In this document: one piece after another, positions 4,434-21,669 of the stretch
Position numbering within the stretch: the stretch's first letter is position 1
How the letters are laid out: each line of letters opens with the position of its first letter
From: a virus
Virus record (IMG/VR): IMGVR_UViG_3300042560_001826
Span: 1-64,000 of that record
DNA length: 64,000 nucleotides
Strand: one strand, 5' to 3'
Translations under genes and position numbers: made by a program
Notes under the pieces: generated by a model
Database searches by the model: none
Seen by the model: only the letters and a program-made list of their open reading frames with translations
What the model was told of the DNA's origin: nothing

Positions 4434-4775
4434 ATGTTGAGAAGAGAATTTAGTGGTGGTGTGTTAAGAACAACCCTTGATGCAAATATTAGCAACTCAG
4501 ATACTTCAATCACGGTTGTTGATGCATCTACTTTTCCTTCCGGAACAAATCCTTTTGTAATTGTAATTGATAGAGGAACTTTGTCAGAAGAGAAAATTCT
4601 TATCTCTTCAAAGACATCTAATACATTTACTGTTGCTTCTCGTGGATATGATGGTTCTTCTGCGTCAATACATACCACTGGTGCTTTTGTTGATCATGTT
4701 CTTGATGCAACAGTTATTCAAGACATGAATCAAACAACATATGATAATGAAGTTTTAGTTTGGATGGGGGTCTAA
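4434..4775 (+). CDS. Structural adaptor protein with C-terminal hydrophobic peptide
   Basis: TL...I...EE.I...RG..G..A..H beta domain, also found twice in tail protein 35053..38985; ends DNEVLVWMGV. Confidence 0.7.
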   Translation: MLRREFSGGVLRTTLDANISNSDTSITVVDASTFPSGTNPFVIVIDRGTLSEEKILISSKTSNTFTVASRGYDGSSASIHTTGAFVDHVLDATVIQDMNQTTYDNEVLVWMGV

Positions 4776-5114
4776 ATGGCTAATTTAACACCTAAGAGTT
4801 TTTATATTGGATCTAATGTTGGAGCTGGCTCCAATGTTTATACTGTTTCAAATACAGTTGGCAACTATTCAATAATTAAAAACATTAATTTATGCAATAC
4901 AACAGCTTCAAATGCTGTATGTAGCATTCATCTTCTTGTTAATGGAGCATCAGTTGCTGATGCAAATAAAATTGTTAGCAATGTGAATGTTTTGGCAAAT
5001 AATGTTGTTTTCTATAATACATCCATAGTCATGCCTGCTAATAGTCGTATTCATGTTACTCAAGTAACAGCGAATGCTATAACATTTACAATTAGCGGTG
5101 TTGAATATGCCTGA
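4776..5114 (+). CDS. ~115-aa beta-sandwich 'hub' protein, paralog 1
   Basis: Shares pattern with 7117, 11966 and 13761. Confidence 0.7.
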   Translation: MANLTPKSFYIGSNVGAGSNVYTVSNTVGNYSIIKNINLCNTTASNAVCSIHLLVNGASVADANKIVSNVNVLANNVVFYNTSIVMPANSRIHVTQVTANAITFTISGVEYA

Positions 5115-7080
5115 TCTTAATAGATCACTACTTGTTGAATCAGAAAATGCCGATACGCTCGGCGGATTGACTGATGTTACAATTACTGCCGCTGAAGAGT
5201 TTCAGGGTTTAAGTTATAACGGAACACAATGGGTTAATAGTCATATCCCAGTTGTTTCGTATGTTAGAAATGCTGAAGCAAATACATTAACAGCGGGGAC
5301 TGTTGTTTATCTTTTTGGCGGAACCGGTGATCACGCTACTGTTAAAAGAGCAGATAATTCAAGCGATACAACATCTTCAAAGACATTAGGTATTGTTGCT
5401 AATCCTATCTCAGCTTCACAAAATGGTCCAGTCGTAACTCGTGGCTATGTTGATGGAATGGATTTAAGCGTAGGTTATTCAGTTGGAGATATTCTGTGGT
5501 TAGGCAAGAACGGTGCGTTTACAAAGACAAAACCAACCGCCCCAGACCATCTTGTTTTTATTGGTGTGGTCGTCCGTGCAACCAACAACGGAATCATTTA
5601 CGTTGCAACACAAAATGGTTATGAACTTGAAGAATTGCACGATGTTAAGCTTTCAAATGTTGCATCTGGAGATTTTTTAAAGTATAACGGAACGCTGTGG
5701 ATTAATGGACCAATTACTCTTGGTACAGACACAACTGGGAATTATATGTCCAATGTGTCTGCTGGAAACTTAATATCTATTTCTCATACGCCGGGTGAAG
5801 GATCCACTGCAACTATTAATGTTGCTAATGGAACTGCAGGTCAAATAATTGTTGCAAATGCATCTGGTGCTCCAGTGTGGGTTACTGAATCTGGCGATAT
5901 AACAATTGATTCATCAGGCGTTGCATCAATCACTTCAAATGTTATCGTTAATGCCGATATAAGCACTACGGCTGCTATTTCTCTTTCTAAGCTTGCAAGT
6001 GGAACATCTGGTCAAGTTCCTGTTGCAAATGCAACCGGTGTTCCTACATATGTAACACTTTCTGGCGATATAACCATTGCTGCCAATGGTCAAACAACAA
6101 TTGCTGCTAACTCTGTTGCACTTGGTACTGACACTACAGGAAACTATATTGCTACAATTACTGGTACTGCAAATGAAATAACAGTAACTGGTTCTGGATC
6201 AGAAAGCGCTACTGTTACATTAAGTCTTCCAGCTAATGTTACTATTGCAAACAATCTTACAGTTACTGGAGATTTAACTGTTAATGGAAATACAACAACT
6301 CTTAATACCGCAAATCTTAATGTTGAAGATAACTTTGTTCTTCTTAACTCTGGAGTCACTGGATCTCCCACACTAAATGCGGGAATTGAAATTGAAAGAG
6401 GAACATCTACAAATGTTGCTATTCGCTGGAATGAGACAACAGATAAGTGGGAATTTACTGTTGATGGTACAAATTATACAGAGCTGGGTGCTGGTGGCGC
6501 AACTGTTTCTTCAACAGCGCCTTCTACACCAACAACCGGGTCTCTATGGTTTGACTCAGATGATGGTAAAACATATGTCTATTATGATTCTTCTTGGGTT
6601 GAAATTGGTGGCAATCCTCTTGGTGTTACAATCAGCGACTCTGCGCCATCTAGCCCGATAGCGGGTCAAGTTTGGTTTAATTCTAATAATGCTGGCACAT
6701 ATGTATATTATGACAGTCACTGGATTGAAATCGGCTCCAGCGGCTTGGTATCGGCTGTAAGCGCTACTGCGCCAGCAAGTCCTGTCACTGGTCAAATCTG
6801 GTTTAATTCAGAAGATGCCGGAACATATATTTATTACGATTCGGCTTGGATTGAAATTGGAGCAGCTCCATTCAATACAGTTCTTAATCAAATTGATGCC
6901 AAGGGCGATATTCTAGTCGGTACAGCAGATAATACGCTTTCTAAGATTGCACTTGGTACAAATGGCTATGTTCTTGCAGCAAACTCTGCAACAGCAACTG
7001 GTCTGGAATGGACACAGGTTTCAAGTAATCCCTTAACATCAAATGCTGCCGCCATATTTATTATGGACATCGGGGTATAA
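5107..7080 (+). CDS. Long fibre protein with three Trp-containing repeats near C-terminus
   Basis: Fibre-type repeats (LxDV, LGTDTTGNY, GDLTVNG); 3x S.TAP..P..G..WF.S....TYVYYDS.W.EIG; ATG 5107 overlaps upstream stop. Confidence 0.8.
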   Translation: MPDLNRSLLVESENADTLGGLTDVTITAAEEFQGLSYNGTQWVNSHIPVVSYVRNAEANTLTAGTVVYLFGGTGDHATVKRADNSSDTTSSKTLGIVANPISASQNGPVVTRGYVDGMDLSVGYSVGDILWLGKNGAFTKTKPTAPDHLVFIGVVVRATNNGIIYVATQNGYELEELHDVKLSNVASGDFLKYNGTLWINGPITLGTDTTGNYMSNVSAGNLISISHTPGEGSTATINVANGTAGQIIVANASGAPVWVTESGDITIDSSGVASITSNVIVNADISTTAAISLSKLASGTSGQVPVANATGVPTYVTLSGDITIAANGQTTIAANSVALGTDTTGNYIATITGTANEITVTGSGSESATVTLSLPANVTIANNLTVTGDLTVNGNTTTLNTANLNVEDNFVLLNSGVTGSPTLNAGIEIERGTSTNVAIRWNETTDKWEFTVDGTNYTELGAGGATVSSTAPSTPTTGSLWFDSDDGKTYVYYDSSWVEIGGNPLGVTISDSAPSSPIAGQVWFNSNNAGTYVYYDSHWIEIGSSGLVSAVSATAPASPVTGQIWFNSEDAGTYIYYDSAWIEIGAAPFNTVLNQIDAKGDILVGTADNTLSKIALGTNGYVLAANSATATGLEWTQVSSNPLTSNAAAIFIMDIGV

Positions 7081-7084
7081 AATA

Positions 7085-7093
7085 GGGTATAAT
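7085..7093 (+). promoter_or_regulatory. -10 element GGGTATAAT upstream of hub/Gly-rich cassette
   Basis: TATAAT at 7088-7093, followed by AAGGAG SD. Confidence 0.5.
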
Positions 7094-7116
7094 ATAAGTT
7101 ATTAAGGAGATAAAAA

Positions 7117-7452
7117 ATGGCAGTAGGAGATAGAACAGAAGCTAGGCTTGGCGGTCCAACACAGCTTAATACAAACACAACAACGGTTTGCACAGTTTCA
7201 GCAAGCCGGGTTGAGGTTTTAAAGCAGATCGTTATTACCAATACAGATACCGTTGATAGAACGGTTTCTTTGGCTATTGGAAATGCAGCGGTTGCTGCAA
7301 ATAGATTAATGTCTCAATTACCAATTGGTGCAAACGACATTATGGTTTTTGATACAGCACTTGTCCTCACAGCAGGTGAAACATTACAAGGTTTAGCCGA
7401 TGCAAATAGTGTTGTCAATGTAACAGTCATCGGTTGGGAAAAAGAAGTCTAA
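7117..7452 (+). CDS. Beta-sandwich 'hub' protein, paralog 2
   Basis: AAGGAG SD; paralogous to 4776, 11966 and 13761. Confidence 0.75.
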   Translation: MAVGDRTEARLGGPTQLNTNTTTVCTVSASRVEVLKQIVITNTDTVDRTVSLAIGNAAVAANRLMSQLPIGANDIMVFDTALVLTAGETLQGLADANSVVNVTVIGWEKEV

Positions 7453-7458
7453 TTTTAT

Positions 7459-9195
7459 ATGGGTCTTTCTAAGGCTTACGGAGAGAAGTCCTTAACTGGA
7501 TATTCATACGGTGCTGGAACTGGTGGAGACACAACTTCCACTGGTGTCACCATTGGCGGAACGCTTTACAATATCCATACATTTACCAACACAGGTACTT
7601 TCACCGTTACTCGCCCAGGAAAGTTTGATGTGTTTGTCGTCGGTGGAGGAGGCGGCGGTGGTCGCCGCAGTAGCACCAATGTAGGCAGCGGTGGCGGAGG
7701 TGGCGGTGTTGTTATCCAACAAACGATTTACCTTGATACAAATGCAACGGTTACAGTCGGTGCGGGTGGAGGTGTGCAAACAAATACCAATACTGATGGC
7801 AATCGTGGTTCTTTTAGTCGTGTAAATCAAGTTACTGCTGGTGGTGGTGGCGGTGGTGCTGGCGGCGGTAGAGGGGCAGCAAATACCGCTATGGATGCGG
7901 CTGGTAGTGGTGGCGGTTCGTTCGGTTCTACCGCTACGGCTGGTGAAACACCAGGGCAAACGTTAATCACTATCGGCGCAAATAATGGCGGTAATGGCGG
8001 CTACACCACAAACCTTGCAGGCGGTGGAGGTGGAGGTTCGGCACAAGTTGGACAAGGTAATAGTGGTAATGCAGCAGGTAATGGTGGCGCAGGAACAGAT
8101 GTTTCAACTTTTATTGGAGGCTCATCTTTATTTGTAGGCGCTGGTGGCGGTGGTGGGTCAGTATCTGGCACTGGCGGTACAGCAGGTAGTTCAACAGGTG
8201 GCAATGGCGGTTCATCTGGCGCACAAGGTTTAAATGCAACGGCGACAAATTATGGTTGTGGCGGTGGAGGTGGTGCCACAACACAAGGTGGTTCTGGATC
8301 AAATGGAGTTGTCTACATCCGTTACGCAACCAATCAAGGCTTTACAACCAATACGGGAAATACAAAGAATGGTTATGGGACCGCAACTGGCGGCTCGTCA
8401 TCATCAATAACGGCTGATGGTGTAGGTTATACACTTTTAACTTTTACCTCTGCTGGCACATTGACAGTTACACAGGCTGGTTTGTTTGATTTATTAGTTG
8501 TTGGCGGTGGCGGTGGTGCCGGTAGTTCAGAAGTTGGCTCCAGTGGTGCTGGCGGTGGTGGTGCTGTTATTCAACAAACTGTTTATTTAAGTAGCAATCA
8601 ATCAATTACTGTTGGAGCTGGTGCTGCTGCTGGAGTATCTGCTAGAGGTGGTCCCAATGGTGGTGCATCTATTGTTGGTTCAACTGTTGGCGCTGTTGGT
8701 GGCGGTGGTGGAGGGGGTAGTTTTTCTGGACCATTTGTTGGTGGTTCTGGAGGTGGTGGTGCAGGTCAAGTAGGTGGTGGATATGGCAATGGTCAAACAG
8801 GTGCAGCTAGTGCATATGATCCAAGCACATCTTTTGGCAATTCTGGTGGCACATCATCTGGAGCCGCAGGGGATGCAGGCGGTGGCGGAGGTGCAGGTGG
8901 CGCAGGTGCAGCTAGTAATACTGGAGGAACAAACGGTGGTAAAGGCGGAGACGGAAAAGATGTTTCCTCCTTTCTTGGTCAATCTGCAGGGACTACTTAT
9001 CTTGGTGCTGGCGGTGGTGGTGGCGCAGATGCTGGTACTGCTGGAGCAGCGGGTTTAGGTGGAGTTGCTGGTAAAACAAGTGGAACTGGCAACAGCGGTG
9101 CAAACAATTCTGGTGCTGGTGGTGGAGGAACTGTCAATAATGCTACTGCTGGCGCTGGCGGTTCAGGCGTTGTCTATGTGAGGTTTAGAACATGA
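7459..9195 (+). CDS. Glycine-rich adhesin-like protein with two tandem Gly-rich domains
   Basis: Two units of F...GT.TVT..G.FD..VVGGGGGGG...VTVGAGG...GSG.VY.R. Confidence 0.85.
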   Translation: MGLSKAYGEKSLTGYSYGAGTGGDTTSTGVTIGGTLYNIHTFTNTGTFTVTRPGKFDVFVVGGGGGGGRRSSTNVGSGGGGGGVVIQQTIYLDTNATVTVGAGGGVQTNTNTDGNRGSFSRVNQVTAGGGGGGAGGGRGAANTAMDAAGSGGGSFGSTATAGETPGQTLITIGANNGGNGGYTTNLAGGGGGGSAQVGQGNSGNAAGNGGAGTDVSTFIGGSSLFVGAGGGGGSVSGTGGTAGSSTGGNGGSSGAQGLNATATNYGCGGGGGATTQGGSGSNGVVYIRYATNQGFTTNTGNTKNGYGTATGGSSSSITADGVGYTLLTFTSAGTLTVTQAGLFDLLVVGGGGGAGSSEVGSSGAGGGGAVIQQTVYLSSNQSITVGAGAAAGVSARGGPNGGASIVGSTVGAVGGGGGGGSFSGPFVGGSGGGGAGQVGGGYGNGQTGAASAYDPSTSFGNSGGTSSGAAGDAGGGGGAGGAGAASNTGGTNGGKGGDGKDVSSFLGQSAGTTYLGAGGGGGADAGTAGAAGLGGVAGKTSGTGNSGANNSGAGGGGTVNNATAGAGGSGVVYVRFRT

Positions 9196-10928
9196 GTATT
9201 TCTGGAGCAAGACAACCAAGATTGGCAACCGAATACGGTATTGCAGCCGGTGGCACAGATGTTACTGTTAATGGCATTGGATATAAGCTACATACATTCA
9301 CTGCAACAGGTACACTAACTGTCACTACTGGTGGTCTTTTTGATATCTTAGCTGTTGGCGGTGGCGGTGCTGGTGGAGGTAACTGGGATGGAACATTTCA
9401 GTCTGGTATGGGCGGTGGTGGTGCCGGAGGATATATTGAAAAAACTATCTACATTGCTAGCGGTACTCATTCAGTTGTAATAGGCGCAGGTGGTGCTGGT
9501 GATTATGCAGCTCCAAGAAATGGAACAAGTAGCGGTGTCTATGCCACATTTACTGGTGGTGGTGGAAGTGCTCCTTCATATGCAATCAATTTTAATAATA
9601 CTTGGTACGGTGCTAAAACTGGTTCTGATGGTGCTTCTGGTGGTGGTGGAACTGGTAGAGCTTCTCAAACTGCAACAAATGCTGGCGGTGCAGGTCAATC
9701 ACCATTAGGAAATAGTGGTGGTTCATCATTTAGTGAAAGCGGAAGCGGAACTTCCGCAGCAGGCGGAGGTGGTGGCGGTGCCGGTGCTGTTGGATCAAAT
9801 GCATCAGCAAATACTGGAGGCGCTGGTGGAGCAGGTGTTACATCAACATTTACCGGATCATCCACAACTCTTGGCGGCGGTGGAGGAGGCGGTGGTGTAA
9901 CCACTGGAGGCGCAGGTGGTGCTGGTGGAGGTGCTGCTGGTAGAACTGGTACTGGCAATGGAAACAATGCAACAGCAAACACCGGTGGCGGTGGTGGTGG
10001 TGCAAGAAGCAATGGAGAAAATCAATATATTGGCGGCAATGGTGGCTCAGGAATCGTCTATATCCGTAGAAGAGTAACAGGATCCATTGCAGCAACTGTT
10101 GCTGGTTATGGTACAGCAACTGGTGGAACAGACTTAGGAACACGGACTGTTAGTGGCATTGATTACAAGATTCTTCAATTCACATCAACGGGAACTTTGA
10201 CAGTGACGAAGGGTGGACTTTTTGACATTATAGCCATATCTGGTGGTGGAGGCGGAAATCAGGGATATACCAACTTCCCATCGCTTGCAAATGGTGGAGC
10301 TGGTGGCGGTGGCATTACCACTGAAACAATTTCCCTCACTACAAATGTGACTATCACGGTTGGTGCTGGTGGCGCTGGTGGTGCAACTGGCACTAATGGC
10401 ACAAGTGGAGCAACTGGATCTCCATCAGGTGTTAGCACGAGACTATTTGCCTTTGGTGGCGGAGGTGCTCAAGATAATATTCCGTCAAATGGTATTTGTG
10501 GCGCTGGTAGCACTCGCCAAACAGCTACAGGCGGATTAGCGATTTTAAATCAAGGAACCGGAGTGGTTCGTGGTTATGATGGCGGCTCAGGTCCAACTGG
10601 AAATACTAATGGCTCTGCTGGCGGTGGCGGTGGAGCTGGCGGTGTTGGTGGTAATGGTGTAGGCACTACTGGCGGTGCTGGCGGTGCTGGTTTTGATGTC
10701 TCAACAATTATTGGTGGCTCAACTTTGCTACTTGGTGGCGGTGGCGGTGGTCCTGGTTCAGTTACAGGTGGAACTGGTAATGGTGGCGGTGGCAATGGTG
10801 GTTCAAATGGTGCAGGAACATCTGGTTCAACAAACACAGGCGGAGGTAGTGGTTCAAGTATCAACAATAATTCTAATACTCTCAATGGTGGATCTGGCAT
10901 TGTTTATGTCAGATTTAGAGTATTGTAA
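9192..10928 (+). CDS. Glycine-rich adhesin-like protein with two tandem Gly-rich domains
   Basis: Same architecture and identical length (578 aa) as 7459..9195; ATGA overlap. Confidence 0.85.
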   Translation: MSISGARQPRLATEYGIAAGGTDVTVNGIGYKLHTFTATGTLTVTTGGLFDILAVGGGGAGGGNWDGTFQSGMGGGGAGGYIEKTIYIASGTHSVVIGAGGAGDYAAPRNGTSSGVYATFTGGGGSAPSYAINFNNTWYGAKTGSDGASGGGGTGRASQTATNAGGAGQSPLGNSGGSSFSESGSGTSAAGGGGGGAGAVGSNASANTGGAGGAGVTSTFTGSSTTLGGGGGGGGVTTGGAGGAGGGAAGRTGTGNGNNATANTGGGGGGARSNGENQYIGGNGGSGIVYIRRRVTGSIAATVAGYGTATGGTDLGTRTVSGIDYKILQFTSTGTLTVTKGGLFDIIAISGGGGGNQGYTNFPSLANGGAGGGGITTETISLTTNVTITVGAGGAGGATGTNGTSGATGSPSGVSTRLFAFGGGGAQDNIPSNGICGAGSTRQTATGGLAILNQGTGVVRGYDGGSGPTGNTNGSAGGGGGAGGVGGNGVGTTGGAGGAGFDVSTIIGGSTLLLGGGGGGPGSVTGGTGNGGGGNGGSNGAGTSGSTNTGGGSGSSINNNSNTLNGGSGIVYVRFRVL

Positions 10929-10994
10929 AAAATGGTAAAAGCATGATCGGGCAAAAATATCATAAATATGTTATTATTTATATGGAGATAAATT

Positions 10995-11687
10995 ATGCCG
11001 TTTAGTTCTGTATTGGGTGCATCAACTGTTATAAGACCGGGTGTTTGTACTTCTACAACCCGCCCATCTGCTCCATATACAGGGCAGTTAATCTTTGAAA
11101 CCGATACCAGCCGATTGGCAGTATGGACAGGTTCTGCATGGCAGTACGAAACCGCTGCTGCTGGTCCTCCTGGGTTGGTATATATCACTGGGGCAACCTT
11201 TACAACTGCCACATCATTTAGCTTGCCTAATGATACCTTTAGTAATACTTATCTCAATTACAAAATTATAATCAATCTGACTGCGCTGACAGCCGACGCA
11301 GACTTTACTATGCGTTTTCGCACCGCTGGAACGGATAACAGCAATAACACATATGCATATACTTTTGCTGGAGTGGGGCTTGGCGGCACTGCTACCAACA
11401 GTGCAGCCAACGATGGAACAGCGTTCGTCGTAGGAGAACAAGAGGCTACATCTGGTTCAGAAATGCGTTATGGTCTTACATTTGATATCTTAAGCCCTAA
11501 AGCAACAACGACTACTAAAGTACAAGGTCATTACGTTTACGTCAATAAGGCGGCAACAGACCAAATTTCTCGTTTCGGTTCAGGCGTATTTAGGGCTACT
11601 ACTTCTTTTGACAGTTTAAGCTTCATAAGCTCTGTAGCGTCAAGCATGTCTGGAAACTACCGTGTATACGGATACACGGATAGTTAA
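10995..11687 (+). CDS. Fibre/receptor-binding-like protein
   Basis: N-terminal TSTTRPSAPYTGQLIFETDT...WTGSAW module and beta-rich C-terminal domain. Confidence 0.7.
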   Translation: MPFSSVLGASTVIRPGVCTSTTRPSAPYTGQLIFETDTSRLAVWTGSAWQYETAAAGPPGLVYITGATFTTATSFSLPNDTFSNTYLNYKIIINLTALTADADFTMRFRTAGTDNSNNTYAYTFAGVGLGGTATNSAANDGTAFVVGEQEATSGSEMRYGLTFDILSPKATTTTKVQGHYVYVNKAATDQISRFGSGVFRATTSFDSLSFISSVASSMSGNYRVYGYTDS

Positions 11688-11704
11688 TATCGGAGGTATA
11701 TAAA

Positions 11705-11956
11705 ATGCCAATTGATTTTCCAAATAGCCCCGCAACAAATGATCAGTTTGTAAGTGGCGGTCGTACATGGATTTGGGATGGTTCCGTATGGAAGGCATAT
11801 ACTCAAGCATTAAATAATTCAACAATTACTTCTAATATGATTGTAGATGGTACAATTGTTAATGCTGATATCTCAAATACAGCTGCAATTAATACAACTA
11901 AAATTACAAATTGGGAAGATGACCAAGTAGTTCTAGCTGTCCAAGCTTTTATTTAA
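11705..11956 (+). CDS. FPxxP branch adaptor 1 (MPIDFPNSP...WEDDQVVLAVQAFI)
   Basis: Paralog of 13505 and 15406; GGAGG SD. Confidence 0.8.
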   Translation: MPIDFPNSPATNDQFVSGGRTWIWDGSVWKAYTQALNNSTITSNMIVDGTIVNADISNTAAINTTKITNWEDDQVVLAVQAFI

Positions 11957-11965
11957 GGAGGAAAA

Positions 11966-12328
11966 ATGGCAACATTTTCAAAGACAATTTTAAGCGGATC
12001 TACAAATGGTAGACCAGTTCTTGTCAATACAACATCATCTAATACATGTGTTGTTCACACAGGTTCAACAAATACATCTGTCCAACACGAAGTCTGGATT
12101 TATGCAATGAATACAGATACGACAGATCGCAAGCTTACGCTTGAGTTTGGTGGTGTTACAAGCCCCAATGACTTGATCGAGCAAACAATTACCGCTGAAG
12201 GCGGGTTGTTATTGGTCATTCCAGGTTTAATTCTTAGCGGTAATGCTTCTACAGCTCCCAGAATCACAGCATTCGCAAACACAGCCAATGTTGTTACAGT
12301 TCTTGGTTTTGTCAACGTCATTGCATAA
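11966..12328 (+). CDS. Beta-sandwich 'hub' protein, paralog 3
   Basis: AAGGAGG SD; NTDTTDR motif shared with 7117. Confidence 0.78.
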   Translation: MATFSKTILSGSTNGRPVLVNTTSSNTCVVHTGSTNTSVQHEVWIYAMNTDTTDRKLTLEFGGVTSPNDLIEQTITAEGGLLLVIPGLILSGNASTAPRITAFANTANVVTVLGFVNVIA

Positions 12329-12338
12329 GGAGGCTTAA

Positions 12339-13187
12339 ATGCGTTTTGGTGAGCGTACACGCCCCGGCGTATCTATAAGCACATTTGGTAGACGACCTTC
12401 TGCTGGTATTTCCTATGGCGTGGCAACAGGTGGCACCTCTTCATCTATTACCGATAACAGTATTGCTTACACACTGTTGAGTTTTACTTCTGATGGAACT
12501 TTAACTGTAACCAAGGCTGGGCTATTTGATATTTTGTGTGTTGGAGGCGGTGGTGGAGGTGGCGCACAACTGTACGGAGGTGAACCAACTGGAGGCGGCG
12601 GTGGAGGAATGGCTTGCATTTCAACTTTGTTTCTTCCAGTCGCTTCTTATACTGTTGATGTTGGTGTTGGTGGTGCTGGCGGAGATTCCAATACACACGC
12701 TGGTTCTCTTGGGGAAACATCCGTAATTTTTAATGCAAAAGCAACAACTTCTGTCATGCATGCAATAGGTGGACAGGGTGGTGCTGGAGACTGGGGCGGC
12801 GTTAGTCGTTATCCCGGAAATCAAGGTGGTCAAAGTTACCGCAACGGATATAATCAAACTGTTGCAGGTGCAATATCTTTGCATCCACTTGGATACAACG
12901 GTGGAGGTTCGCAGAACTCAACAACTCGTGCTGGCGGTGGTGCTGGTGCAGGAGGAGATGCGAGCGATTCGCCAGCAGGAACTGCTGGTATTGGTCGCAC
13001 ATTGACATTTACTGGAAGCAGTGTAACTTTTGGTCAAGGTGGTGGCGGAGGAACCGCTACTGGTCTTGGCACAAACACACCGTCTACAGTGAACTCTGGG
13101 AATGGTGGCAATGGTCGCCAAAGCGGAGGCTCTGGTAACGGTGGGAATGGTCAAGCAGGTGCAATATATGTGAGGTTCCGCCCGTGA
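12339..13187 (+). CDS. Glycine-rich adhesin-like protein (single domain)
   Basis: Same Gly-rich domain; ends IYVRFRP. Confidence 0.85.
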   Translation: MRFGERTRPGVSISTFGRRPSAGISYGVATGGTSSSITDNSIAYTLLSFTSDGTLTVTKAGLFDILCVGGGGGGGAQLYGGEPTGGGGGGMACISTLFLPVASYTVDVGVGGAGGDSNTHAGSLGETSVIFNAKATTSVMHAIGGQGGAGDWGGVSRYPGNQGGQSYRNGYNQTVAGAISLHPLGYNGGGSQNSTTRAGGGAGAGGDASDSPAGTAGIGRTLTFTGSSVTFGQGGGGGTATGLGTNTPSTVNSGNGGNGRQSGGSGNGGNGQAGAIYVRFRP

Positions 13188-13411
13188 GTGAACAAACCTA
13201 TTTTGCCAAAGTTGAAGATGGTATTGTTACAGATGTTCGTATTGTAAAATGGGATTTCCTTGTAGCAAACCCAGACCGTTACGGTGATTCCTCTTTTTGG
13301 ATTGAAGTTTTTCCAGATAACTCTGGTCGTGGCTACTGCTCTAAGGGTTGGTCATATGACGCTGAACTTGATAAATTTATAGGTCCGTTTATTAGCAAGG
13401 TAGCAGAATAA
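13184..13411 (+). CDS. Small partner protein following Gly-rich gene, paralog 1
   Basis: YFAKV...VTDV...YDAELDKFIGP; paralog of 15026 and 16595. Confidence 0.75.
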   Translation: MSEQTYFAKVEDGIVTDVRIVKWDFLVANPDRYGDSSFWIEVFPDNSGRGYCSKGWSYDAELDKFIGPFISKVAE

Positions 13412-13504
13412 TGTGTTCGTATATTGGCTATGTATAGTTTAGGATTTAATTAAATATATTTTAATATAAAATAATATATGATATTCTTTATTGAGAGGTA
13501 AAAT

Positions 13505-13759
13505 ATGGCAATTGATTTTCCAAACTCCCCAACAACAAACCAGATTTTTACATCTGGCGGAAAGACATGGGTGTATGATGGAACAGTTTGGACATTAAGA
13601 TCCTCGTTGGCAGGTCCTGGTGGAATTACCTCAACAGAGCTTGCAAACTCATCTGTTACAACTGATAAAATTGCATCAGGTGCAATAGTTTCTAATTTAG
13701 GATTTACACCGGCATCAACCGGTAAAAGTATTGCTATGGCAATAGTATTCGGAGGATAA
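13505..13759 (+). CDS. FPxxP branch adaptor 2 (MAIDFPNSP...GKSIAMAIVFGG)
   Basis: N-terminal domain shared with 11705 and 15406; different C-terminal peptide. Confidence 0.8.
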   Translation: MAIDFPNSPTTNQIFTSGGKTWVYDGTVWTLRSSLAGPGGITSTELANSSVTTDKIASGAIVSNLGFTPASTGKSIAMAIVFGG

Positions 13760-13760
13760 A

Positions 13761-14114
13761 ATGGCAGCGCCAAATATAGTTAATGTAACAACAATTACGG
13801 GTAAAACAGCAGTTCAAGCGGTGACCACATCTGCTACAGCGATTGTCACAAATTCTGCTGCCAGTAATACAGTCGTTAAAATCAATGCATTATATGTTGC
13901 AAATATTGATGGTACAAACGCTTGCGATCTCACTGTTGATTTGTTTAGAAGTTCAACCGCATATAAAATTACTTCAACCGTATCGGTTCCGGCAGATGCG
14001 GTGCTAGATGTTATTAGTAAATCAATATATCTTGAAGAAGGTGACTCTCTCAGACTCACTGCTGGTGCTAATTCAGACCTTGAGGCGGTTTGTTCTTACG
14101 AAATTATTAGTTAA
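13761..14114 (+). CDS. Beta-sandwich 'hub' protein, paralog 4
   Basis: MAAPNIVNVTTITGKT...YLEEGDSL...SYEIIS. Confidence 0.78.
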   Translation: MAAPNIVNVTTITGKTAVQAVTTSATAIVTNSAASNTVVKINALYVANIDGTNACDLTVDLFRSSTAYKITSTVSVPADAVLDVISKSIYLEEGDSLRLTAGANSDLEAVCSYEIIS

Positions 14115-14116
14115 TT

Positions 14117-14962
14117 ATGCGTAGAAGAGGCGGCGTAATAGGACCAAAGCGAAATGCTAATGGTGGTGGTGGCATATGGTCATTAAATGATCAACAGCAA
14201 GAAAATGGCGCTGGAACTTGGGGTGTAATGTCAACATCCGTAGTTGAATATTTGATAATTGCTGGCGGTGGCGGTGGTGGTCCTAGTGGCGGTGGCGAAA
14301 GAGGCGGCGGTGGTGCTGGAGGTTATAAGACAAACCTATCTGGAGCAACCAATGGTGGCGGTCAAGCACTTGGTACTGTCATGAATGTTACTGGCGGGAG
14401 TCAGTATACGGTAACTGTTGGTGGAGGTGGAAATGGAAGTTCAACCCCAACAGCCGGCAGTAGCTCCGTATTTAATTCAATCACTTCTACTGGTGGCGCT
14501 GTCGGTGGTGGTGGTGGTACTGACCCTGGTGGTGCTGCTGGTTCGTTTGGCTATACTGGCGGTTCGTCAATAAATAACTCTGCTGCTGGCGGAGGTGGTG
14601 GCGCTGGGGCTGCTGGTGGTAATGCCAGCAGCGGCGTTGCAGGAAATGGTGGCGCAGGTTTGGCAAGCACAATTACTGGTTCATCGGTTACTCGTGGCGG
14701 TGGCGGTGGTGGGAGTGCTTCAGGTGGAACTAATGGAACTGGCGGTTCTGGTGGTGGAGGTAATGCAACCCTAGGTGGAACAGCAAATACTGGTGGCGGA
14801 GGTGGTGGCGCTGGTGGTGCTGGCGGTTCTGGCGTTGTTATTATTCGTTACCCATCAACATCATTAGCGGCAACAACGACTGGTGCATCTGTTGTTTATA
14901 ATAACGGTGCTGGCGGTTATCATGTTTACACATTTAATGCTTCTGGTACAATAACATTTTAA
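14117..14962 (+). CDS. Glycine-rich adhesin-like protein
   Basis: VEYLIIAGGGGGG...GGSGVVIIRYP...YTFNASGTITF. Confidence 0.85.
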   Translation: MRRRGGVIGPKRNANGGGGIWSLNDQQQENGAGTWGVMSTSVVEYLIIAGGGGGGPSGGGERGGGGAGGYKTNLSGATNGGGQALGTVMNVTGGSQYTVTVGGGGNGSSTPTAGSSSVFNSITSTGGAVGGGGGTDPGGAAGSFGYTGGSSINNSAAGGGGGAGAAGGNASSGVAGNGGAGLASTITGSSVTRGGGGGGSASGGTNGTGGSGGGGNATLGGTANTGGGGGGAGGAGGSGVVIIRYPSTSLAATTTGASVVYNNGAGGYHVYTFNASGTITF

Positions 14963-15025
14963 CTAATAGATTTTTATTTCTACCTGTGGTATTATATACA
15001 AGAAACCAAAAGGAGGTTTTCTAAA

Positions 15026-15391
15026 ATGGCTCATTTTGCCCAAATTAACGAAAGCAATATCGTGACACAGGTTATCGTTGTGTCCAATAACGATTGTGGT
15101 GGTGGAGAATACCCCGGATCGGATTCCATCGGAGCTGCCTTTTGCCATAATCTTTTAGGCGGAACATGGAAACAAACTTCTTATAATAATAATTTCCGTA
15201 AGCGCTACGCCGGAATTGGATATACATTCAATGCTGAGCTTGATGCATTCATTGCCCCTCAGCCGTATCCTTCTTGGACATTGAATACGGAAACAGCAGA
15301 TTGGGAAGCCCCAACACCACGCCCCACAGAAGGCGTATGGACATGGAATGAATCCACTCAGCAATGGGATGAGGTTACATTACCCGCTTAA
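15026..15391 (+). CDS. Small partner protein, paralog 2 (MAHFAQ...)
   Basis: QTSYN..FRKRYAGIGYTFNAELDAFIAP; AGGAGG SD; TGGTATTAT -10 at 14987-14995. Confidence 0.8.
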   Translation: MAHFAQINESNIVTQVIVVSNNDCGGGEYPGSDSIGAAFCHNLLGGTWKQTSYNNNFRKRYAGIGYTFNAELDAFIAPQPYPSWTLNTETADWEAPTPRPTEGVWTWNESTQQWDEVTLPA

Positions 15392-15405
15392 TTAAGAGGT
15401 AACTA

Positions 15406-15696
15406 ATGCCATTAGATTTCCCAAATACACCGGCAACAAATGATAAGTATTCTGCTGGTGGAAGAACATGGACATATAACGGAACATCTTGGGTATTAGA
15501 TGTTTATGTCGGAGTTGTACCAGTTGGTGCTGTTGATACAGCGCAGCTGGCAAATTCCGCTGTCACAAGTGCAAAGATTGCAGATGGTACGATTGTTAAT
15601 GCCGATATCTCTACATCAGCAGCAATAACAACAACAAAAATTACAAACTGGGAAGATGATCAAGTCGTTCTATCTTCCCAAATTTTTTCTGCATAG
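15406..15696 (+). CDS. FPxxP branch adaptor 3 (MPLDFPNTP...WEDDQVVLSSQIFSA)
   Basis: C-terminal ~35 aa nearly identical to 11705 protein. Confidence 0.8.
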   Translation: MPLDFPNTPATNDKYSAGGRTWTYNGTSWVLDVYVGVVPVGAVDTAQLANSAVTSAKIADGTIVNADISTSAAITTTKITNWEDDQVVLSSQIFSA

Positions 15697-15707
15697 ATGG
15701 TGATTTG

Positions 15708-16592
15708 ATGTCTTACGGAAGAAGATTAAGATCGGGCACTTCAGTAAGTAATTGGACTAAGCGTAGTGCCAGCGCTCCTCTAAATATTGCCACTGTTGAA
15801 TATCTTGTCATTGCTGGTGGTGGCGGTTCGCAAACATCGGGCGGCGCTGACCGTGGCGGTGGTGGCGCTGGTGGCTATCGCTGTTCAGTAGTCGGTGAAA
15901 CAACTGGTGGTGGTGGTTCAGCAGAAGTAAGACTGGCTTTCTTCAAGAACACGACCGTGACTGTCACCGTTGGTGCTGGTGGCGGTATCTCTACACAAGG
16001 TAGCAGTAGTTCGTTTGCCGGAATTACATCTACTGGTGGTGGCGGGGCTACTGACGGTACTGGCGGTTCTGGCGGTTCTGGTGCTGGTGGTTCGGGTGGT
16101 TCGGCTGGCGGCGCTCGCACTGCATCACCGGTACAAGGCAACAACGGCGGAAGTGCGGGAACGCAAGGTTCTGGTGGCGGTGGTGGTGCTGGCGGTGCTG
16201 GCACTAATGCCACCACGAATACTGGCGGCAATGGCGGTATCGGTTTGAGTTCGTCTATTGACGGAGCCGCAACTAGTCGTGGCGGCGGTGGTGGCGGTGG
16301 TGGTCTAAGTACTGGCGGTCCTGGCGTTGCTGGCGGTGGGAACGGCGATTCAAACTCTGTTCCTGGTAGTGCTGGCTCAGCAAATACTGGTGGTGGCGGT
16401 GGTGGAACTTACGCAAGTCGTTCAGGGCGTTCTGGCGGCTCGGGAATAGTCATCATGCGTTATCCATCAAGTTTTGGAACGTTGACATCTATCGGCGCAG
16501 GACTCACATCAACGACGGGAACCTACTCATCTGGTGGAGTAACTTATCGTTACTACTCATTCACTGCTGGCACGGACACGATTACTTTCTGA
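15708..16592 (+). CDS. Glycine-rich adhesin-like protein
   Basis: VEYLVIAGGGG...GGSGIVIMRYP...FTAGTDTITF. Confidence 0.85.
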   Translation: MSYGRRLRSGTSVSNWTKRSASAPLNIATVEYLVIAGGGGSQTSGGADRGGGGAGGYRCSVVGETTGGGGSAEVRLAFFKNTTVTVTVGAGGGISTQGSSSSFAGITSTGGGGATDGTGGSGGSGAGGSGGSAGGARTASPVQGNNGGSAGTQGSGGGGGAGGAGTNATTNTGGNGGIGLSSSIDGAATSRGGGGGGGGLSTGGPGVAGGGNGDSNSVPGSAGSANTGGGGGGTYASRSGRSGGSGIVIMRYPSSFGTLTSIGAGLTSTTGTYSSGGVTYRYYSFTAGTDTITF

Positions 16593-16594
16593 TT

Positions 16595-16879
16595 ATGGCA
16601 CACTACGCATTTATCAACTCAAACAATGTCGTGACGGAAGTGATTGTAGGTCGTGACGAAGATGATCTAGCAGATGGAGTTTCCTCGTGGGAAGAATATT
16701 ACGCAACAAAACGTGATGGTGTTATTTGCAAACGAACTTCATACAACACTTATCGTGATGAGAACGGCGTTCCGCAACATGCAAACGGTGGCGTACCATT
16801 CCGTGGTCAGTATGCTGGTATCGGTGACAGATACGACGCAGAACTAGATCAATTTATAACACCAAATAATCCTAAATAA
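16595..16879 (+). CDS. Small partner protein, paralog 3 (MAHYAF...)
   Basis: RTSYNT...FRGQYAGIGDRYDAELDQFITP. Confidence 0.8.
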   Translation: MAHYAFINSNNVVTEVIVGRDEDDLADGVSSWEEYYATKRDGVICKRTSYNTYRDENGVPQHANGGVPFRGQYAGIGDRYDAELDQFITPNNPK

Positions 16880-17126: not shown

Positions 17127-17400
17127 TAAATATACCCCAGAAGACCTTGATGCAAGGTTAAGATTTGTTATTGGCTGTGTCTTGGGTGCAGTGCTCTTTA
17201 CAACGACATTAGCCATTCTATATGCTCTCGTTTTTGTTTCTCAACCAATTGGTGCACAAGCAGAAAATGACAAAATGTTCTTTAGCGTTCTTTCAAGCAT
17301 TGCCACATTTATTACCGGCACATTGGCTGGTTTGATGATTTCCAATGTGAAAGGAAAGCAGGCACAGGAAGAAGAGGCTGATATTCCAGTAGAGGAATAA
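17119..17400 (+). CDS. Two-TM membrane protein (holin-like)
   Basis: AAGGAG SD before ATG 17119; two hydrophobic segments. Confidence 0.7.
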   Translation: MNNKYTPEDLDARLRFVIGCVLGAVLFTTTLAILYALVFVSQPIGAQAENDKMFFSVLSSIATFITGTLAGLMISNVKGKQAQEEEADIPVEE

Positions 17401-20600: not shown

Positions 20601-20858
20601 ATGGAACAGGTCAAAAATATTTGCCTTCGTATATTGGCGACCTTTTCTGCCTCGGGACTTGGAGTTATCGGGGCGGGTACAATTGCTGGCGTTCCTGTTT
20701 GGAAGGCGGTTTTTATGGCAGGGATTGCTGGCGTTGCTACCGTTGTTGAAGGTTTATCACGTGAGTTCTTAGATGATGGTAAACTAGATATGGATGAAAT
20801 CAATGAAGTCTTCAGTAAAGTCGATAAGAAAGCAGTTAAGAAAGAGGAGGAGTTCTAA
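20601..20858 (+). CDS. Holin-like membrane protein
   Basis: Two TMs then DDGKLD...EINE; directly upstream of endolysin. Confidence 0.7.
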   Translation: MEQVKNICLRILATFSASGLGVIGAGTIAGVPVWKAVFMAGIAGVATVVEGLSREFLDDGKLDMDEINEVFSKVDKKAVKKEEEF

Positions 20859-20859
20859 A

Positions 20860-21669
20860 ATGAGCGTTAAATGGAATATTATTGTACCGGTAAAACAGCC
20901 AGCAGATTTAAAGGGAGTTGCACCCGGAAAACTTCCAGACAGTCTTCTTAAGCCAGTTAAGGGCGGTGGAAAGTTACACTGGAGAGCTGCAGATGCTTGG
21001 GATGCAATGGTTGAAGCTGCAAAGATTGATGGTATTGAATTAAAGCCAGTTTCTGCCGGAGATACATATCGTTCATTTGAATCTCAATTGGCAGCATTTA
21101 GGCAGAGATATCAGAAAGAGCCAATTGCTGGAGCTCAGACAAGAACTTTTGAAGGGGTTAAGTGGTACAAGAAAGATCCTAAATTAGCCAGTCTTGCCGC
21201 ACCTGGTACATCGCAGCATAATAGCGGATTGGCAGTCGATGTTCATACTGCTGCTGAACCAAAGCGCTTAAATTGGCTTATTGATAATGTTCGTAAATTT
21301 GGATTTAGTTGGGAAGTTGTGCCAGAAGAGCCATGGCACTTACGCTATACAGAAGGCGACAATCCCCCTGCTGCTGTGATTGAATTTATTACAAAGAGAG
21401 ATGGGCAAGCACCTGCTAGTGCTCCAGCTAAAGCTCAAAATGAAGAGGCAAAGGTTGATCCAGCTGCTCTTCCAGTACTAGTTAGAGATTATAAAGGGGC
21501 GGCTGTTCGGAGAGCTCAAGGTCTTTTAAACAAGCATGGAATTGCTTGCAAAGAAGATTCTAGCTTTGGTCCAAAAACTCAAGAAGCTGTTAAGCAATTC
21601 CAAAAGAAAGTTGGCCTACCAACAACTGGAGATGTTGATGCAGCAACTTGGAAAGCCTTGCTCTCATAA
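20860..21669 (+). CDS. Endolysin: M15 (VanY-like) peptidase plus peptidoglycan-binding domain
   Basis: YRS..Q, PGTSQH..GLAVD and EPWH motifs; C-terminal FGPKT..AVKQFQ...GL..TG.VD..TW. Confidence 0.88.
   Translation: MSVKWNIIVPVKQPADLKGVAPGKLPDSLLKPVKGGGKLHWRAADAWDAMVEAAKIDGIELKPVSAGDTYRSFESQLAAFRQRYQKEPIAGAQTRTFEGVKWYKKDPKLASLAAPGTSQHNSGLAVDVHTAAEPKRLNWLIDNVRKFGFSWEVVPEEPWHLRYTEGDNPPAAVIEFITKRDGQAPASAPAKAQNEEAKVDPAALPVLVRDYKGAAVRRAQGLLNKHGIACKEDSSFGPKTQEAVKQFQKKVGLPTTGDVDAATWKALLS

What the first reader, a model, noticed from the sequence alone, without database searches (positions are those of the whole stretch)
6505..6861. Three Trp repeats on the long fibre match three FPxxP branch adaptors
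Seen: the 5107 fibre carries exactly three repeats (S.TAP..P..G..WF.S....TYVYYDS.W.EIG), and the window encodes exactly three small proteins sharing the N-terminal domain M(P/A)(I/L)DFPN(S/T)P.TN.....GG.TW.(W/Y).G..W (11705, 13505, 15406). Inference: the repeats are branch points where the FPxxP domains dock, each branch then carrying a hub and Gly-rich heads.
Basis: partly seen in the sequence, partly recalled or inferred. Interest (0 to 1): 0.75.

Follow-up and report, generated by a model that had tools for sequence, protein, structure and literature searches.

The report
Fibre knobs matched to branch-fibre caps
A phage tail fibre carries three copies of a small knob, and the phage has exactly three genes starting with a related cap; across many relatives the two numbers change together, so the knobs are probably where side branches attach, though no binding has been shown.

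Summary
The fibre (5107-7080) has three 42-residue repeats (R; 6505-6882). Exactly three genes in the 105-kb genome start with the FPxxP module (N; 11705, 13505, 15406).

Two amendments:
- R and N are sub-types of one small beta-meander module (profile-profile probability 91-93%).
- A fourth protein (10995) starts with an R-like unit.

N is a large unnamed family of about 12,500 clusters. It sits almost always at residue 1 of tailspikes, collagen-like fibres, collar-domain proteins or small adaptors.

In 71 complete, distinct phage loci:
- R and N co-occur (52 both, 14 neither, 5 one only).
- An R gene precedes the first N gene in 50 of 52.
- N genes outnumber R units only once.

In the window's own lineage the counts match (3/3, 2/2, 1/1, 0/0) with no counterexample found. 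Two other lineages also track. One lineage does not: it has 2-4 R units with one N gene.

Docking of N caps on R knobs is therefore the best explanation (about 0.5), but binding is inferred. The main rival is that both are foldon-like trimerisation knots.

Another agent of this scan reported the same counting rule on another genome (e1-5990671).

The parts
5107..7080 (+). Main fibre gene (about 657 aa from ATG 5107; the ORF opens at GTG 5098)
   Evidence: Pieces match tail-fibre proteins of cultured phages and PHROG tail-fibre families. It is the third gene of the conserved 'root - hub - fibre' trio found in 48 related loci.
6505..6630 (+). Repeat R1 (residues 470-511)
   Evidence: HMM E 2.7e-18. 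AlphaFold2 predicts a four-strand beta meander with pLDDT 81-85.
6631..6756 (+). Repeat R2 (residues 512-553). This unit is missing in two-repeat relatives.
   Evidence: HMM E 1.9e-18. The alignment with 16 relatives shows two-repeat fibres lacking this middle unit.
6757..6882 (+). Repeat R3 (residues 554-595)
   Evidence: HMM E 1.4e-19. pLDDT 87-88.
10995..11687 (+). 230-aa protein whose residues 20-49 (nt 11052-11141) are an R-type unit placed near the N-terminus. This is a second kind of N-terminal cap.
   Evidence: E 5.8e-13. It hits phrog_8309 at the same profile positions as the fibre repeats. The same arrangement recurs in many relatives, labelled R20+p230C.
11705..11956 (+). Adaptor 1 (83 aa). 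N cap at 11705-11797, then an I.DG.IVNADIS.. segment, then the C-terminal tail ...DDQVVLAVQAFI.
13505..13759 (+). Adaptor 2 (84 aa). N cap at 13505-13597. C-terminal tail ...SIAMAIVFGG.
15406..15696 (+). Adaptor 3 (96 aa). N cap at 15406-15498. C-terminal tail ...DDQVVLSSQIFSA.
   Evidence: AlphaFold2 gives the cap as a three-strand antiparallel sheet (residues 14-34) with pLDDT 81-92.
4434..4775 (+). 113-aa 'root' protein that precedes the first hub and the fibre
   Evidence: It is conserved in 48 related loci directly before hub and fibre.
4776..5114 (+). Hub paralogue 1 (112 aa)
   Evidence: Hub HMM family of 64 members.
7117..7452 (+). Hub paralogue 2 (111 aa, MAVGDR type). It follows the fibre, whose tail ends ...IFIMDIGV.
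11966..12328 (+). Hub paralogue 3 (120 aa, MATFSK type). It follows adaptor 1.
   Evidence: (phrog_30535).
13761..14114 (+). Hub paralogue 4 (117 aa, MAAPNIV type). It follows adaptor 2.
7459..10928 (+). Two 578-aa Gly-rich proteins (7459-9195 and 9192-10928)
   Evidence: Pfam Gly_rich_2 PF21722, E 4e-24 and 6e-35.
12339..13187 (+). Gly-rich head of branch 1 (282 aa)
   Evidence: PF21722, E 6e-17.
14117..14962 (+). Gly-rich head of branch 2 (281 aa)
   Evidence: PF21722, E 2e-8.
15705..16592 (+). Gly-rich head of branch 3 (295 aa). No hub gene lies between it and adaptor 3.
   Evidence: PF21722, E 1e-11.
13184..13411 (+). Small protein that closes the first cassette. Its relatives at 15026-15391 and 16595-16879 close the other two cassettes.
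   Evidence: phrog_14370 and phrog_7759, function unknown.

Best explanation
The fibre repeats (R) and the FPxxP starts of the three small proteins (N) are two specialised forms of one small beta-meander module. Its pattern is P-x-x-P-x-x-G/N, then an aromatic strand, then a [KR]-T-[WY]-x-[WY]-x-G/S-x-x-W hairpin.

R units form knobs along a trimeric fibre. In some relatives they interrupt collagen-like triple helices. N sits at residue 1 of separately encoded receptor-binding proteins or, as here, of short adaptors.

Most likely each R knob is an attachment point and an N cap docks on it. Since the two are related, the contact is probably like-with-like beta-sheet pairing. On this reading the fibre of this phage carries three side branches. 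Each adaptor would then pass on, through its hydrophobic C-terminal tail, to a small hub protein and a Gly-rich head.

Shown here:
- Both motifs are real, and R and N are homologous.
- N is strictly N-terminal on very diverse heads.
- R and N co-occur, and the R gene lies upstream of the N genes.
- N genes almost never outnumber R units.
- The counts track each other in three lineages, the window's own among them.

Inferred only:
- The physical contact and its geometry.
- Its stoichiometry.
- Whether each knob selects one particular cap.
For: 1. Homology. hhalign of R against N profiles gives 93.5% and 91% probability, in register. The predicted folds are the same three-strand meander, with one extra first strand in R.

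2. N behaves as an N-terminal anchor.
- In relatives it starts a 712-aa tailspike with pectate-lyase-like, endosialidase and S74 chaperone parts, and FN3 plus Gly-rich fibres.
- It also starts collagen, tail-collar and carbohydrate-binding proteins.
- Most of the best 150 of about 12,534 clusters have it at residues 1-34.

3. Linkage, in 71 complete loci of distinct architecture drawn with four different baits.
- 52 have both, 14 neither, 3 R only and 2 N only. Spearman rho is 0.80.
- The number of N genes is at most the number of R units in 98%, against 83% on permutation (p < 1e-4).
- An R precedes the first N in 50 of 52.
- Hub, Gly-rich and small-protein gene counts do not correlate with N in the 50-locus set (rho 0.07-0.26).
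- Two apparent R-only loci turned out to have an N gene that my gene picking had dropped.

4. Count tracking in the window's own lineage.
- 3/3: this phage. Loci L249, L010 and L012 show at least 3 N genes with 3 R, their downstream ends lying near the locus end.
- 2/2: L022, L111, L293.
- 1/1: L052. 0/0: L036, L051 and L055.
- A tree of the adjacent root and hub proteins shows the changes on separate branches. Examples are L033 (2 R, at least 2 N) against its sister L052 (1/1), and L022 (2/2) against sisters with 0/0.

5. A second lineage gives 4/4, 3/3 and 2/2.

6. In a collagen-like fibre family, the second knob is replaced by Gly-X-Y repeats exactly in the members that have one N gene instead of two.

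7. Chain cases. When the first N protein itself carries an R unit, one more N gene follows (L115 against L104 and L096; Actinomycetia phage DSL-LC01).

8. The cultured T4-like cyanophage S-N03 has 11-13 R units and 9-10 N genes, in two clusters.

9. N genes occur with R but without hubs or Gly-rich heads, as in the collagen-like family. The partner of N is therefore not the hub.
Against: - No interface was predicted or measured. The structure tool folds single chains only.
- One large lineage does not track. It has the layout 434-aa protein, main fibre, then a 254-aa N protein, with 2-4 R units and a single N gene (L171, L172, L199, L225, L186). R units can therefore exist without their own N gene.
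- Exact equality over all loci with both is only 42%, against 27% by permutation.
- The loci are related to each other, so the p-values are inflated.
- My choice of which R units to count (internal ones, not N-terminal ones) was made after seeing the data.
- Clustering R units and N caps into types gave lineage-level associations but no clean one-to-one code.
- R resembles the T4 foldon hairpin and sits beside collagen-like helices. That fits a purely structural role.
- It is unclear how a trimeric cap would sit on the side of a trimeric knob.
Confidence: 0.5

Rival explanations
1. Both R and N are foldon-like trimerisation or register knots. N would nucleate trimer folding at the start of each fibre protein. 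R would re-register the three chains inside long, often collagen-like, fibres. The two would not bind each other, and the adaptors would attach elsewhere.
For: - The T4 fibritin foldon scores 10.9 bits against the R profile, above all 2,000 shuffles. It aligns hairpin to hairpin..YV..D(G/S).WV...
- The weak fold matches of one R unit include a collagen XVIII trimerisation domain (Z 4.3).
- R units interrupt Gly-X-Y triple helices, and N is directly followed by Gly-X-Y repeats in several proteins.
- N followed at once by R, at the same spacing as R followed by R, shows that N is simply the first unit of an array in some proteins.
- The lineage with 2-4 R units and one N gene fits this reading.
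Against: - It does not predict that N genes almost never outnumber R units, nor that an R gene precedes the first N gene.
- It does not predict the repeated 3/3, 2/2 and 1/1 matches on separate branches.
- It does not explain why N is a distinct sub-type found only at residue 1, with its own conserved M-A-I-D-F-P start.
- It also leaves the adaptors, which are only 83-96 aa, without any attachment site.
Confidence: 0.28
2. The repeats are aromatic-rich glycan or cell-wall binding units, like choline-binding or glucan-binding repeats. They would give the fibre weak, multivalent adhesion to the host surface. N would be the same binding unit at the tip of other proteins.
For: - Each 37-residue unit has six or seven aromatic residues.
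- Foldseek lists a choline-binding domain, a glucan-binding glucosyltransferase and beta-propeller lectins among its weak matches, at E 0.06-0.7.
Against: - No Pfam match to cell-wall binding repeats.
- All fold matches are below significance.
- The receptor-binding heads of N proteins lie at the C-terminal end. A binding unit at the virion-proximal end makes little sense.
- It does not explain the count and order rules.
Confidence: 0.08
3. The match of three and three is a by-product of shared descent. A lineage that uses this module simply uses it in many places, and conserved units may serve as joints for shuffling fibre segments. Equal numbers would be chance plus inheritance.
For: - R and N are homologous.
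- Many matching loci are relatives of one another.
- The distal parts of N proteins are shuffled freely. This phage and its 85%-identical relative L008 share the same N types but with different C-terminal tails.
Against: - The units are only 54-62% identical as DNA, too little for homologous recombination.
- The counts change together on several separate branches and in three lineages.
- Counts of other module genes do not follow N.
Confidence: 0.1

Closest known systems
Anchor-branch receptor-binding systems of Klebsiella podophages KP32, K11 and KP34: branching domain of RBP1 plus a conserved N-terminal docking peptide of RBP2 (PMC6872550; abstract of PMC13352976, which reports experimental validation)
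   Same: A first fibre or spike carries a docking site. Further, separately encoded receptor-binding proteins start with a short conserved N-terminal element and have freely exchangeable distal parts. The gene order is carrier first, then clients.
   Different: - The docking site there is a single T4 gp10-like branching domain. Here it would be a 37-42-residue beta-meander unit present in 1-5 or more copies.
- Site and cap are homologous here.
- The number of sites varies and follows the number of clients in some lineages.
- No gp10-like domain was detected. Binding is not shown here.
Branched tailspike complexes of Ackermannviridae (CBA120 TSP1-4) and phage G7C gp66/gp63.1 (PMC11414711)
   Same: Several receptor-binding proteins are mounted on one another through their N-terminal parts, which gives a multi-headed appendage.
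   Different: Those systems use gp10-like XD domains. Only weak fold matches to the CBA120 TSP4 N-terminal part were found (E 0.19-0.75). They have no repeated countable knobs and no small adaptor proteins.
T4 fibritin foldon (PDB 1RFO)
   Same: A roughly 27-residue proline-rich stretch followed by a beta hairpin with a buried Trp. The hairpin aligns with the last two strands of R at 10.9 bits, above all shuffles. It is found on a trimeric phage fibre.
   Different: The foldon is a single C-terminal end-cap. R is internal and repeated and has extra strands, and N is N-terminal. The similarity is too weak to claim membership.
Pfam DUF7360 (PF24059)
   Same: A 39-position domain of unknown function. 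It is the only Pfam model that R units touch: 10 of 64 units at E < 0.1, best 0.0014.
   Different: The scores are below the curated cut-off (15.6 against 27.6 bits). N has no Pfam match at all.

Membership tests
Anchor-branch RBP systems (T4 gp10-like branching domain plus conserved N-terminal docking peptide) | The primary RBP carries a T4 gp10-like branching domain. | tested here: inconclusive
   No Pfam or PHROG match of that kind in the fibre. There were only weak Foldseek rows to the CBA120 TSP4 N-terminal part (E 0.19-0.75). Only the C-terminal 216 residues of the fibre were folded.
Anchor-branch RBP systems (T4 gp10-like branching domain plus conserved N-terminal docking peptide) | Secondary RBPs begin with a short conserved element, followed by variable distal domains. 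| tested here: met
   N sits at residue 1 of proteins of 40-855 aa with tailspike, collagen, collar, FN3 plus Gly-rich and other distal parts.
Anchor-branch RBP systems (T4 gp10-like branching domain plus conserved N-terminal docking peptide) | Physical binding of the N-terminal element to the branching site. | not testable with these tools
   The structure tool folds single chains only. The support is comparative only.
T4 fibritin foldon | Sequence match to the 27-residue foldon. | tested here: inconclusive
   10.9 bits to the R profile over 16 residues, above 2,000 shuffles. 4.5 bits to the N profile, which is within the shuffles. Foldon chains were not among the PDB profile hits at E <= 10.
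T4 fibritin foldon | Single copy at the C-terminal end of the fibre. | tested here: not met
   R is internal and in three tandem copies. N is at residue 1.
Pfam DUF7360 (PF24059) | Score at or above the curated gathering cut-off. | tested here: not met
   15.6 bits against a cut-off of 27.6 for the whole fibre. 10 of 64 single units match at E < 0.1.
WW domain | Two Trp residues about 20-22 residues apart in a three-strand sheet, with a match to WW profiles. | tested here: not met
   There is only one PDB profile row to a WW domain, at E 2.5, and no Pfam WW hit. The Trp spacing is 16 in R and 7 in N.
Choline-binding or cell-wall binding repeats (CW_binding_1) | Match to the repeat profile or to the solenoid fold. 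| tested here: inconclusive
   No Pfam match. Foldseek rows to a choline-binding domain appear only at E 0.58.

The most novel reading that the evidence does not exclude
R knobs and N caps form a specific, sequence-readable junction code. Each knob on a carrier fibre would select one cap type. The branching topology and number of heads of a phage's host-recognition tree could then be read from its genome. A second, independent code (C-terminal tail type matched to hub type) would link each branch to its head.
Probability: 0.2. Interest if true: 0.85.

Novelty: new variant of a known kind. Interest (0 to 1): 0.66.

Why it matters
Branched, multi-headed receptor-binding appendages are known mainly from a few enterobacterial phages that use gp10-like domains.

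Here a different module pair seems to do the same job. It is very widespread and has no name. The N cap alone covers about 12,500 clusters at 50% identity. It occurs in freshwater and marine phages, cultured T4-like cyanophages among them.

The site number is countable. If the docking is real, three things follow:
- The number of fibre branches could be read from sequence.
- It would explain how these phages exchange heads while keeping their anchors.
- It would give an unannotated domain pair a function that can be tested in cultured cyanophages.

Tried and rejected
- Tandem Repeats Finder on 6300-7100 found no 126-nt array. The repeats are visible only as protein.
- PDB sequence searches with the repeat region and with both profiles gave nothing significant. 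The rows were a pectate lyase at E 0.014-0.29, a WW domain at E 2.5 and PhiKZ gp184 at E 1.1.
- Foldseek and VIA-align searches with both models gave only weak rows, best Z 4.4. I could therefore name no solved fold. The WW-domain lead was dropped on these grounds.
- PhiKZ gp184 residues 69-102 resemble the N cap (30% identity, rmsd 1.7 A over 33 residues, but Z 2.2). In the capsid they fill a gap between two proteins. This is too weak to use as evidence.
It was repeated with 11 closer sequences.
- Clustering R units and N caps into types to look for a one-to-one pairing code gave strong lineage-level associations, for example R38 with N41 and R19 with N22. It gave no clean code in the window's own lineage.
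- I considered reading each small adaptor gene and the following gene as one split or read-through gene. Adaptor 1 and its hub are in the same frame, nine bases apart. I did not pursue this, because homologous small adaptors with the same ends are common as separate genes.
- A first literature search for the Gly-rich domain names found nothing.
Full report
**What the window is.** The window is the first 64 kb of a 105,121-base IMG/VR virus record rated complete. Head genes (protease-scaffold, major capsid protein) end near 4.4 kb. They are followed by a 12-kb block of fibre-related genes from 4434 to 16879, and then by a lysis-like region.

**The observation.** The fibre gene (ORF 5098-7080, probable start ATG 5107) carries three tandem 42-residue units at residues 470-595, which is nt 6505-6882.
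- Each unit scores E about 1e-18 against a profile built from relatives.
- The units are 50-57% identical as protein and 54-62% as DNA. Tandem Repeats Finder does not see them. They are old copies that are each maintained.
- The three small proteins at 11705, 13505 and 15406 (83, 84 and 96 aa) share a 31-residue start.
- All ORFs of the whole genome hold no other copy of either profile at E <= 0.001.

1. The two motifs are one module. A loose pattern written for both finds exactly these six places in the window. More to the point, profile-profile comparison of 110 repeat units with 53 N-terminal caps gives 93.5% probability (E 2e-7), in register. The tool's own hhalign on alignments A2 and A1 gives 91%. 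AlphaFold2 predicts each repeat as a four-strand meander (pLDDT 81-88).
2. The 230-aa protein at 10995 carries a repeat-type unit at residues 20-49 (E 6e-13). I call the internal form R, the FPxxP start N, and this near-terminal R form Rn.

**What N is.** In relatives, N is the first 31 residues of proteins of 53 to 1,191 aa.
- One is a 712-aa tailspike with pectate-lyase-like, endosialidase and S74 chaperone parts.
- Others are fibres with two FN3 domains and a Gly-rich head.
- In the large protein collection N starts proteins with collagen repeats, tail-collar domains, S74 chaperones or carbohydrate-binding modules. All are unnamed or generically named.
- A profile search of 1.84 billion representatives finds 12,534 clusters at E <= 0.001. 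Most of the best 150 have the match at residues 1-34. A minority are long proteins with 8-16 internal R-like copies.
- N has no Pfam family. R touches only DUF7360, below its cut-off.

A conserved N-terminal element in front of freely varying distal parts is the usual mark of a virion-attachment anchor of tail fibres and tailspikes. That last point rests on established knowledge and on PMC6872550.

I collected 300 loci from IMG/VR with four baits: the fibre, N, R and the post-fibre hub. I annotated all ORFs with the same profiles. In 71 complete loci of distinct architecture:
- R and N co-occur: 52 both, 14 neither, 3 R only, 2 N only.
- Spearman rho between internal R units and N genes is 0.80.
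- N genes outnumber R units once among the 52 loci with both (98%, against 83% on permutation, p < 1e-4).
- The counts are exactly equal in 42%, against 27% on permutation (p 0.005).
- An R unit precedes the first N gene in 50 of 52.
- Counts of hub, Gly-rich and small closing genes do not follow N in the 50-locus set.
- Two of the apparent R-only loci actually have an N gene that my gene picking had dropped. One locus, L154, remains without a clear R.

The loci are related to one another, so these p-values are optimistic.

**The window's own lineage.** This lineage has the gene order root, hub, fibre.
- Three R with three N genes: this phage. L249 (85% identical), L010 and L012 have three R and at least three N genes, since their downstream ends lie near the locus end. 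Their N proteins differ widely: 83/84/96 aa, 712/97/68 aa and 669/661/69 aa.
- Two R with two N genes: L022, L111 and L293.
- One R with one N gene: L052.
- None with none: L036, L051 and L055.
- Truncated contigs give only lower bounds, and none contradicts the rule.
- A tree of the adjacent root and hub proteins places these states on separate branches. L033 (2 R, at least 2 N) is sister to L052 (1/1) with almost no divergence. L022 (2/2) is sister to phages with 0/0. The 3/3 clade of L010 and L012 is sister to the L033 and L052 clade.
- The alignment shows that two-repeat fibres lack the middle unit.

**Other lineages.**
- A second lineage (430-aa protein with Rn, then a main fibre) shows 4/4 (L118, L298, L216, L184, L200), 3/3 (L183, L092, L308, L046) and 2/2 (L087, L091).
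- In a collagen-like 600-aa fibre family, R units are globular interruptions of Gly-X-Y helices. Members with two knobs have two N genes. Members in which the second knob is replaced by Gly-X-Y repeats have one.
- Where the first N protein itself carries an R unit, one more N gene follows. Examples are L115 against L104 and L096 and the metagenome-assembled Actinomycetia phage DSL-LC01.
- The cultured T4-like cyanophage S-N03 has 11-13 R units and 9-10 N genes in two fibre clusters.

**The failure.** One large lineage has the layout 434-aa Rn protein, main fibre, then a conserved 254-aa N protein. It has two to four R units but one N gene (L171, L172, L199, L225, L186). There the last two units form a constant pair of a classic R and an Rn-like unit next to the constant N type. 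Sites can therefore be unoccupied, shared or used for something else. The strict one-to-one rule is not general.

**Mechanism.** The best reading is that R knobs are docking sites for N caps. It accounts for five things together:
- the N-terminal position of N on diverse heads;
- the gene order;
- the co-occurrence of R and N;
- the rule that N genes do not outnumber R units;
- the tracking of counts.

Because N genes occur with R but without hubs or Gly-rich heads, the partner of N is not the hub.

Homology of site and cap suggests like-with-like sheet pairing. The model of N lacks most of the first strand that R has, which would leave a sheet edge free. That last step is speculation.

Collagen repeats next to both R and N show that both carriers are trimers. 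How a trimeric cap sits on a trimeric knob is unknown.

**The main rival.** R and N may be foldon-like trimerisation knots that do not bind each other.
- The T4 foldon, whose sequence I checked against PDB, scores 10.9 bits on the R profile. That is above 2,000 shuffles, and it aligns hairpin on hairpin.
- A collagen trimerisation domain is among the weak fold matches.
- This rival explains the non-tracking lineage. It does not explain the count and order rules.
- The two readings are not exclusive.

**Downstream of the adaptors.** Each adaptor ends in a hydrophobic tail, and two of the three are followed by a hub gene.
- Across all loci, the tail type and the following hub type never cross. 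The classified pairs number 30, 19, 5 and 3 on the diagonal and none off it (examples).

**Comparison with known systems.** The closest known design is the anchor-branch system of Klebsiella podophages: a branching domain on RBP1 and a conserved N-terminal peptide on RBP2 (PMC6872550; the abstract of PMC13352976 reports experimental validation). The branched tailspike complexes of Ackermannviridae are also close (PMC11414711). Those systems use T4 gp10-like domains, which I did not detect here. Here the site is a short repeated unit homologous to the cap, and its number varies. I therefore rate this a new variant of a known kind.

**Earlier notes of this scan.** Another agent reported the same counting rule on another freshwater actinobacterial phage (e1-5990671). 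That is a lead and not independent evidence. I tested the rule here myself and found that it holds in three lineages and fails in one.

Noticed in passing
window 4434-14114; loci L005-L311: The type of each small hub protein is strictly matched to the C-terminal tail of the protein encoded just before it:
- ...xMDIGx goes with MAxGDR hubs.
- ...IAMAIVFGG goes with MAAPNIV hubs.
- ...DDQxxLxxQxF goes with MATFSK hubs.
- ...VLVWMGV goes with MANLT hubs.
Classified pairs number 30, 19, 5 and 3 on the diagonal and none off it.
   Followed up: partly
window 10995-11687; for example L258-L287, L118, L298: There is a second kind of N-terminal anchor: an R-like unit at residues 17-32 (S.TRPS.P..GQ.I.ETDT...VW.G.AW). 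In many phages exactly three such proteins follow a hub gene. This phage has only one, after two Gly-rich proteins.
   Followed up: partly
L099, L106, L136, L145; L312 (Actinomycetia phage DSL-LC01): Collagen-like (Gly-X-Y) phage fibres of 600-1,100 aa are interrupted by single R units. These look like globular knobs on a triple-helical stalk.
   Followed up: partly
L197:3476-3997 against window 6430-7077: In a phage whose fibre C-terminal part (from 25 residues before R1 to the end) is 97% identical to this one, a deletion runs from the middle of R2 to the matching point of R3. It leaves two units. Its contig ends before the N genes, so the expected loss of one N gene could not be checked.
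   Followed up: no
window 15406-15498; PDB 8y6v chain I: The N cap resembles the resolved residues 69-102 of PhiKZ inner capsid protein gp184 (30% identity, rmsd 1.7 A over 33 residues, Z 2.2, sequence E 1.1). In the capsid that segment wedges between two proteins. The match is too weak to rely on.
   Followed up: partly
window 17400-20300: A 966-aa protein has an N-terminal signal-like segment and C-terminal membrane segments. It sits between the fibre block and an endolysin-like gene (20794-21669) and has no family match apart from a weak PHROG hit.
   Followed up: no
window 13184-13411, 15026-15391, 16595-16879: Three small paralogues beginning MAHFAQIN or MAHYAFIN (phrog_7759 and phrog_14370, function unknown) close each adaptor-hub-head cassette. 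The same family closes such cassettes in many relatives.
   Followed up: no
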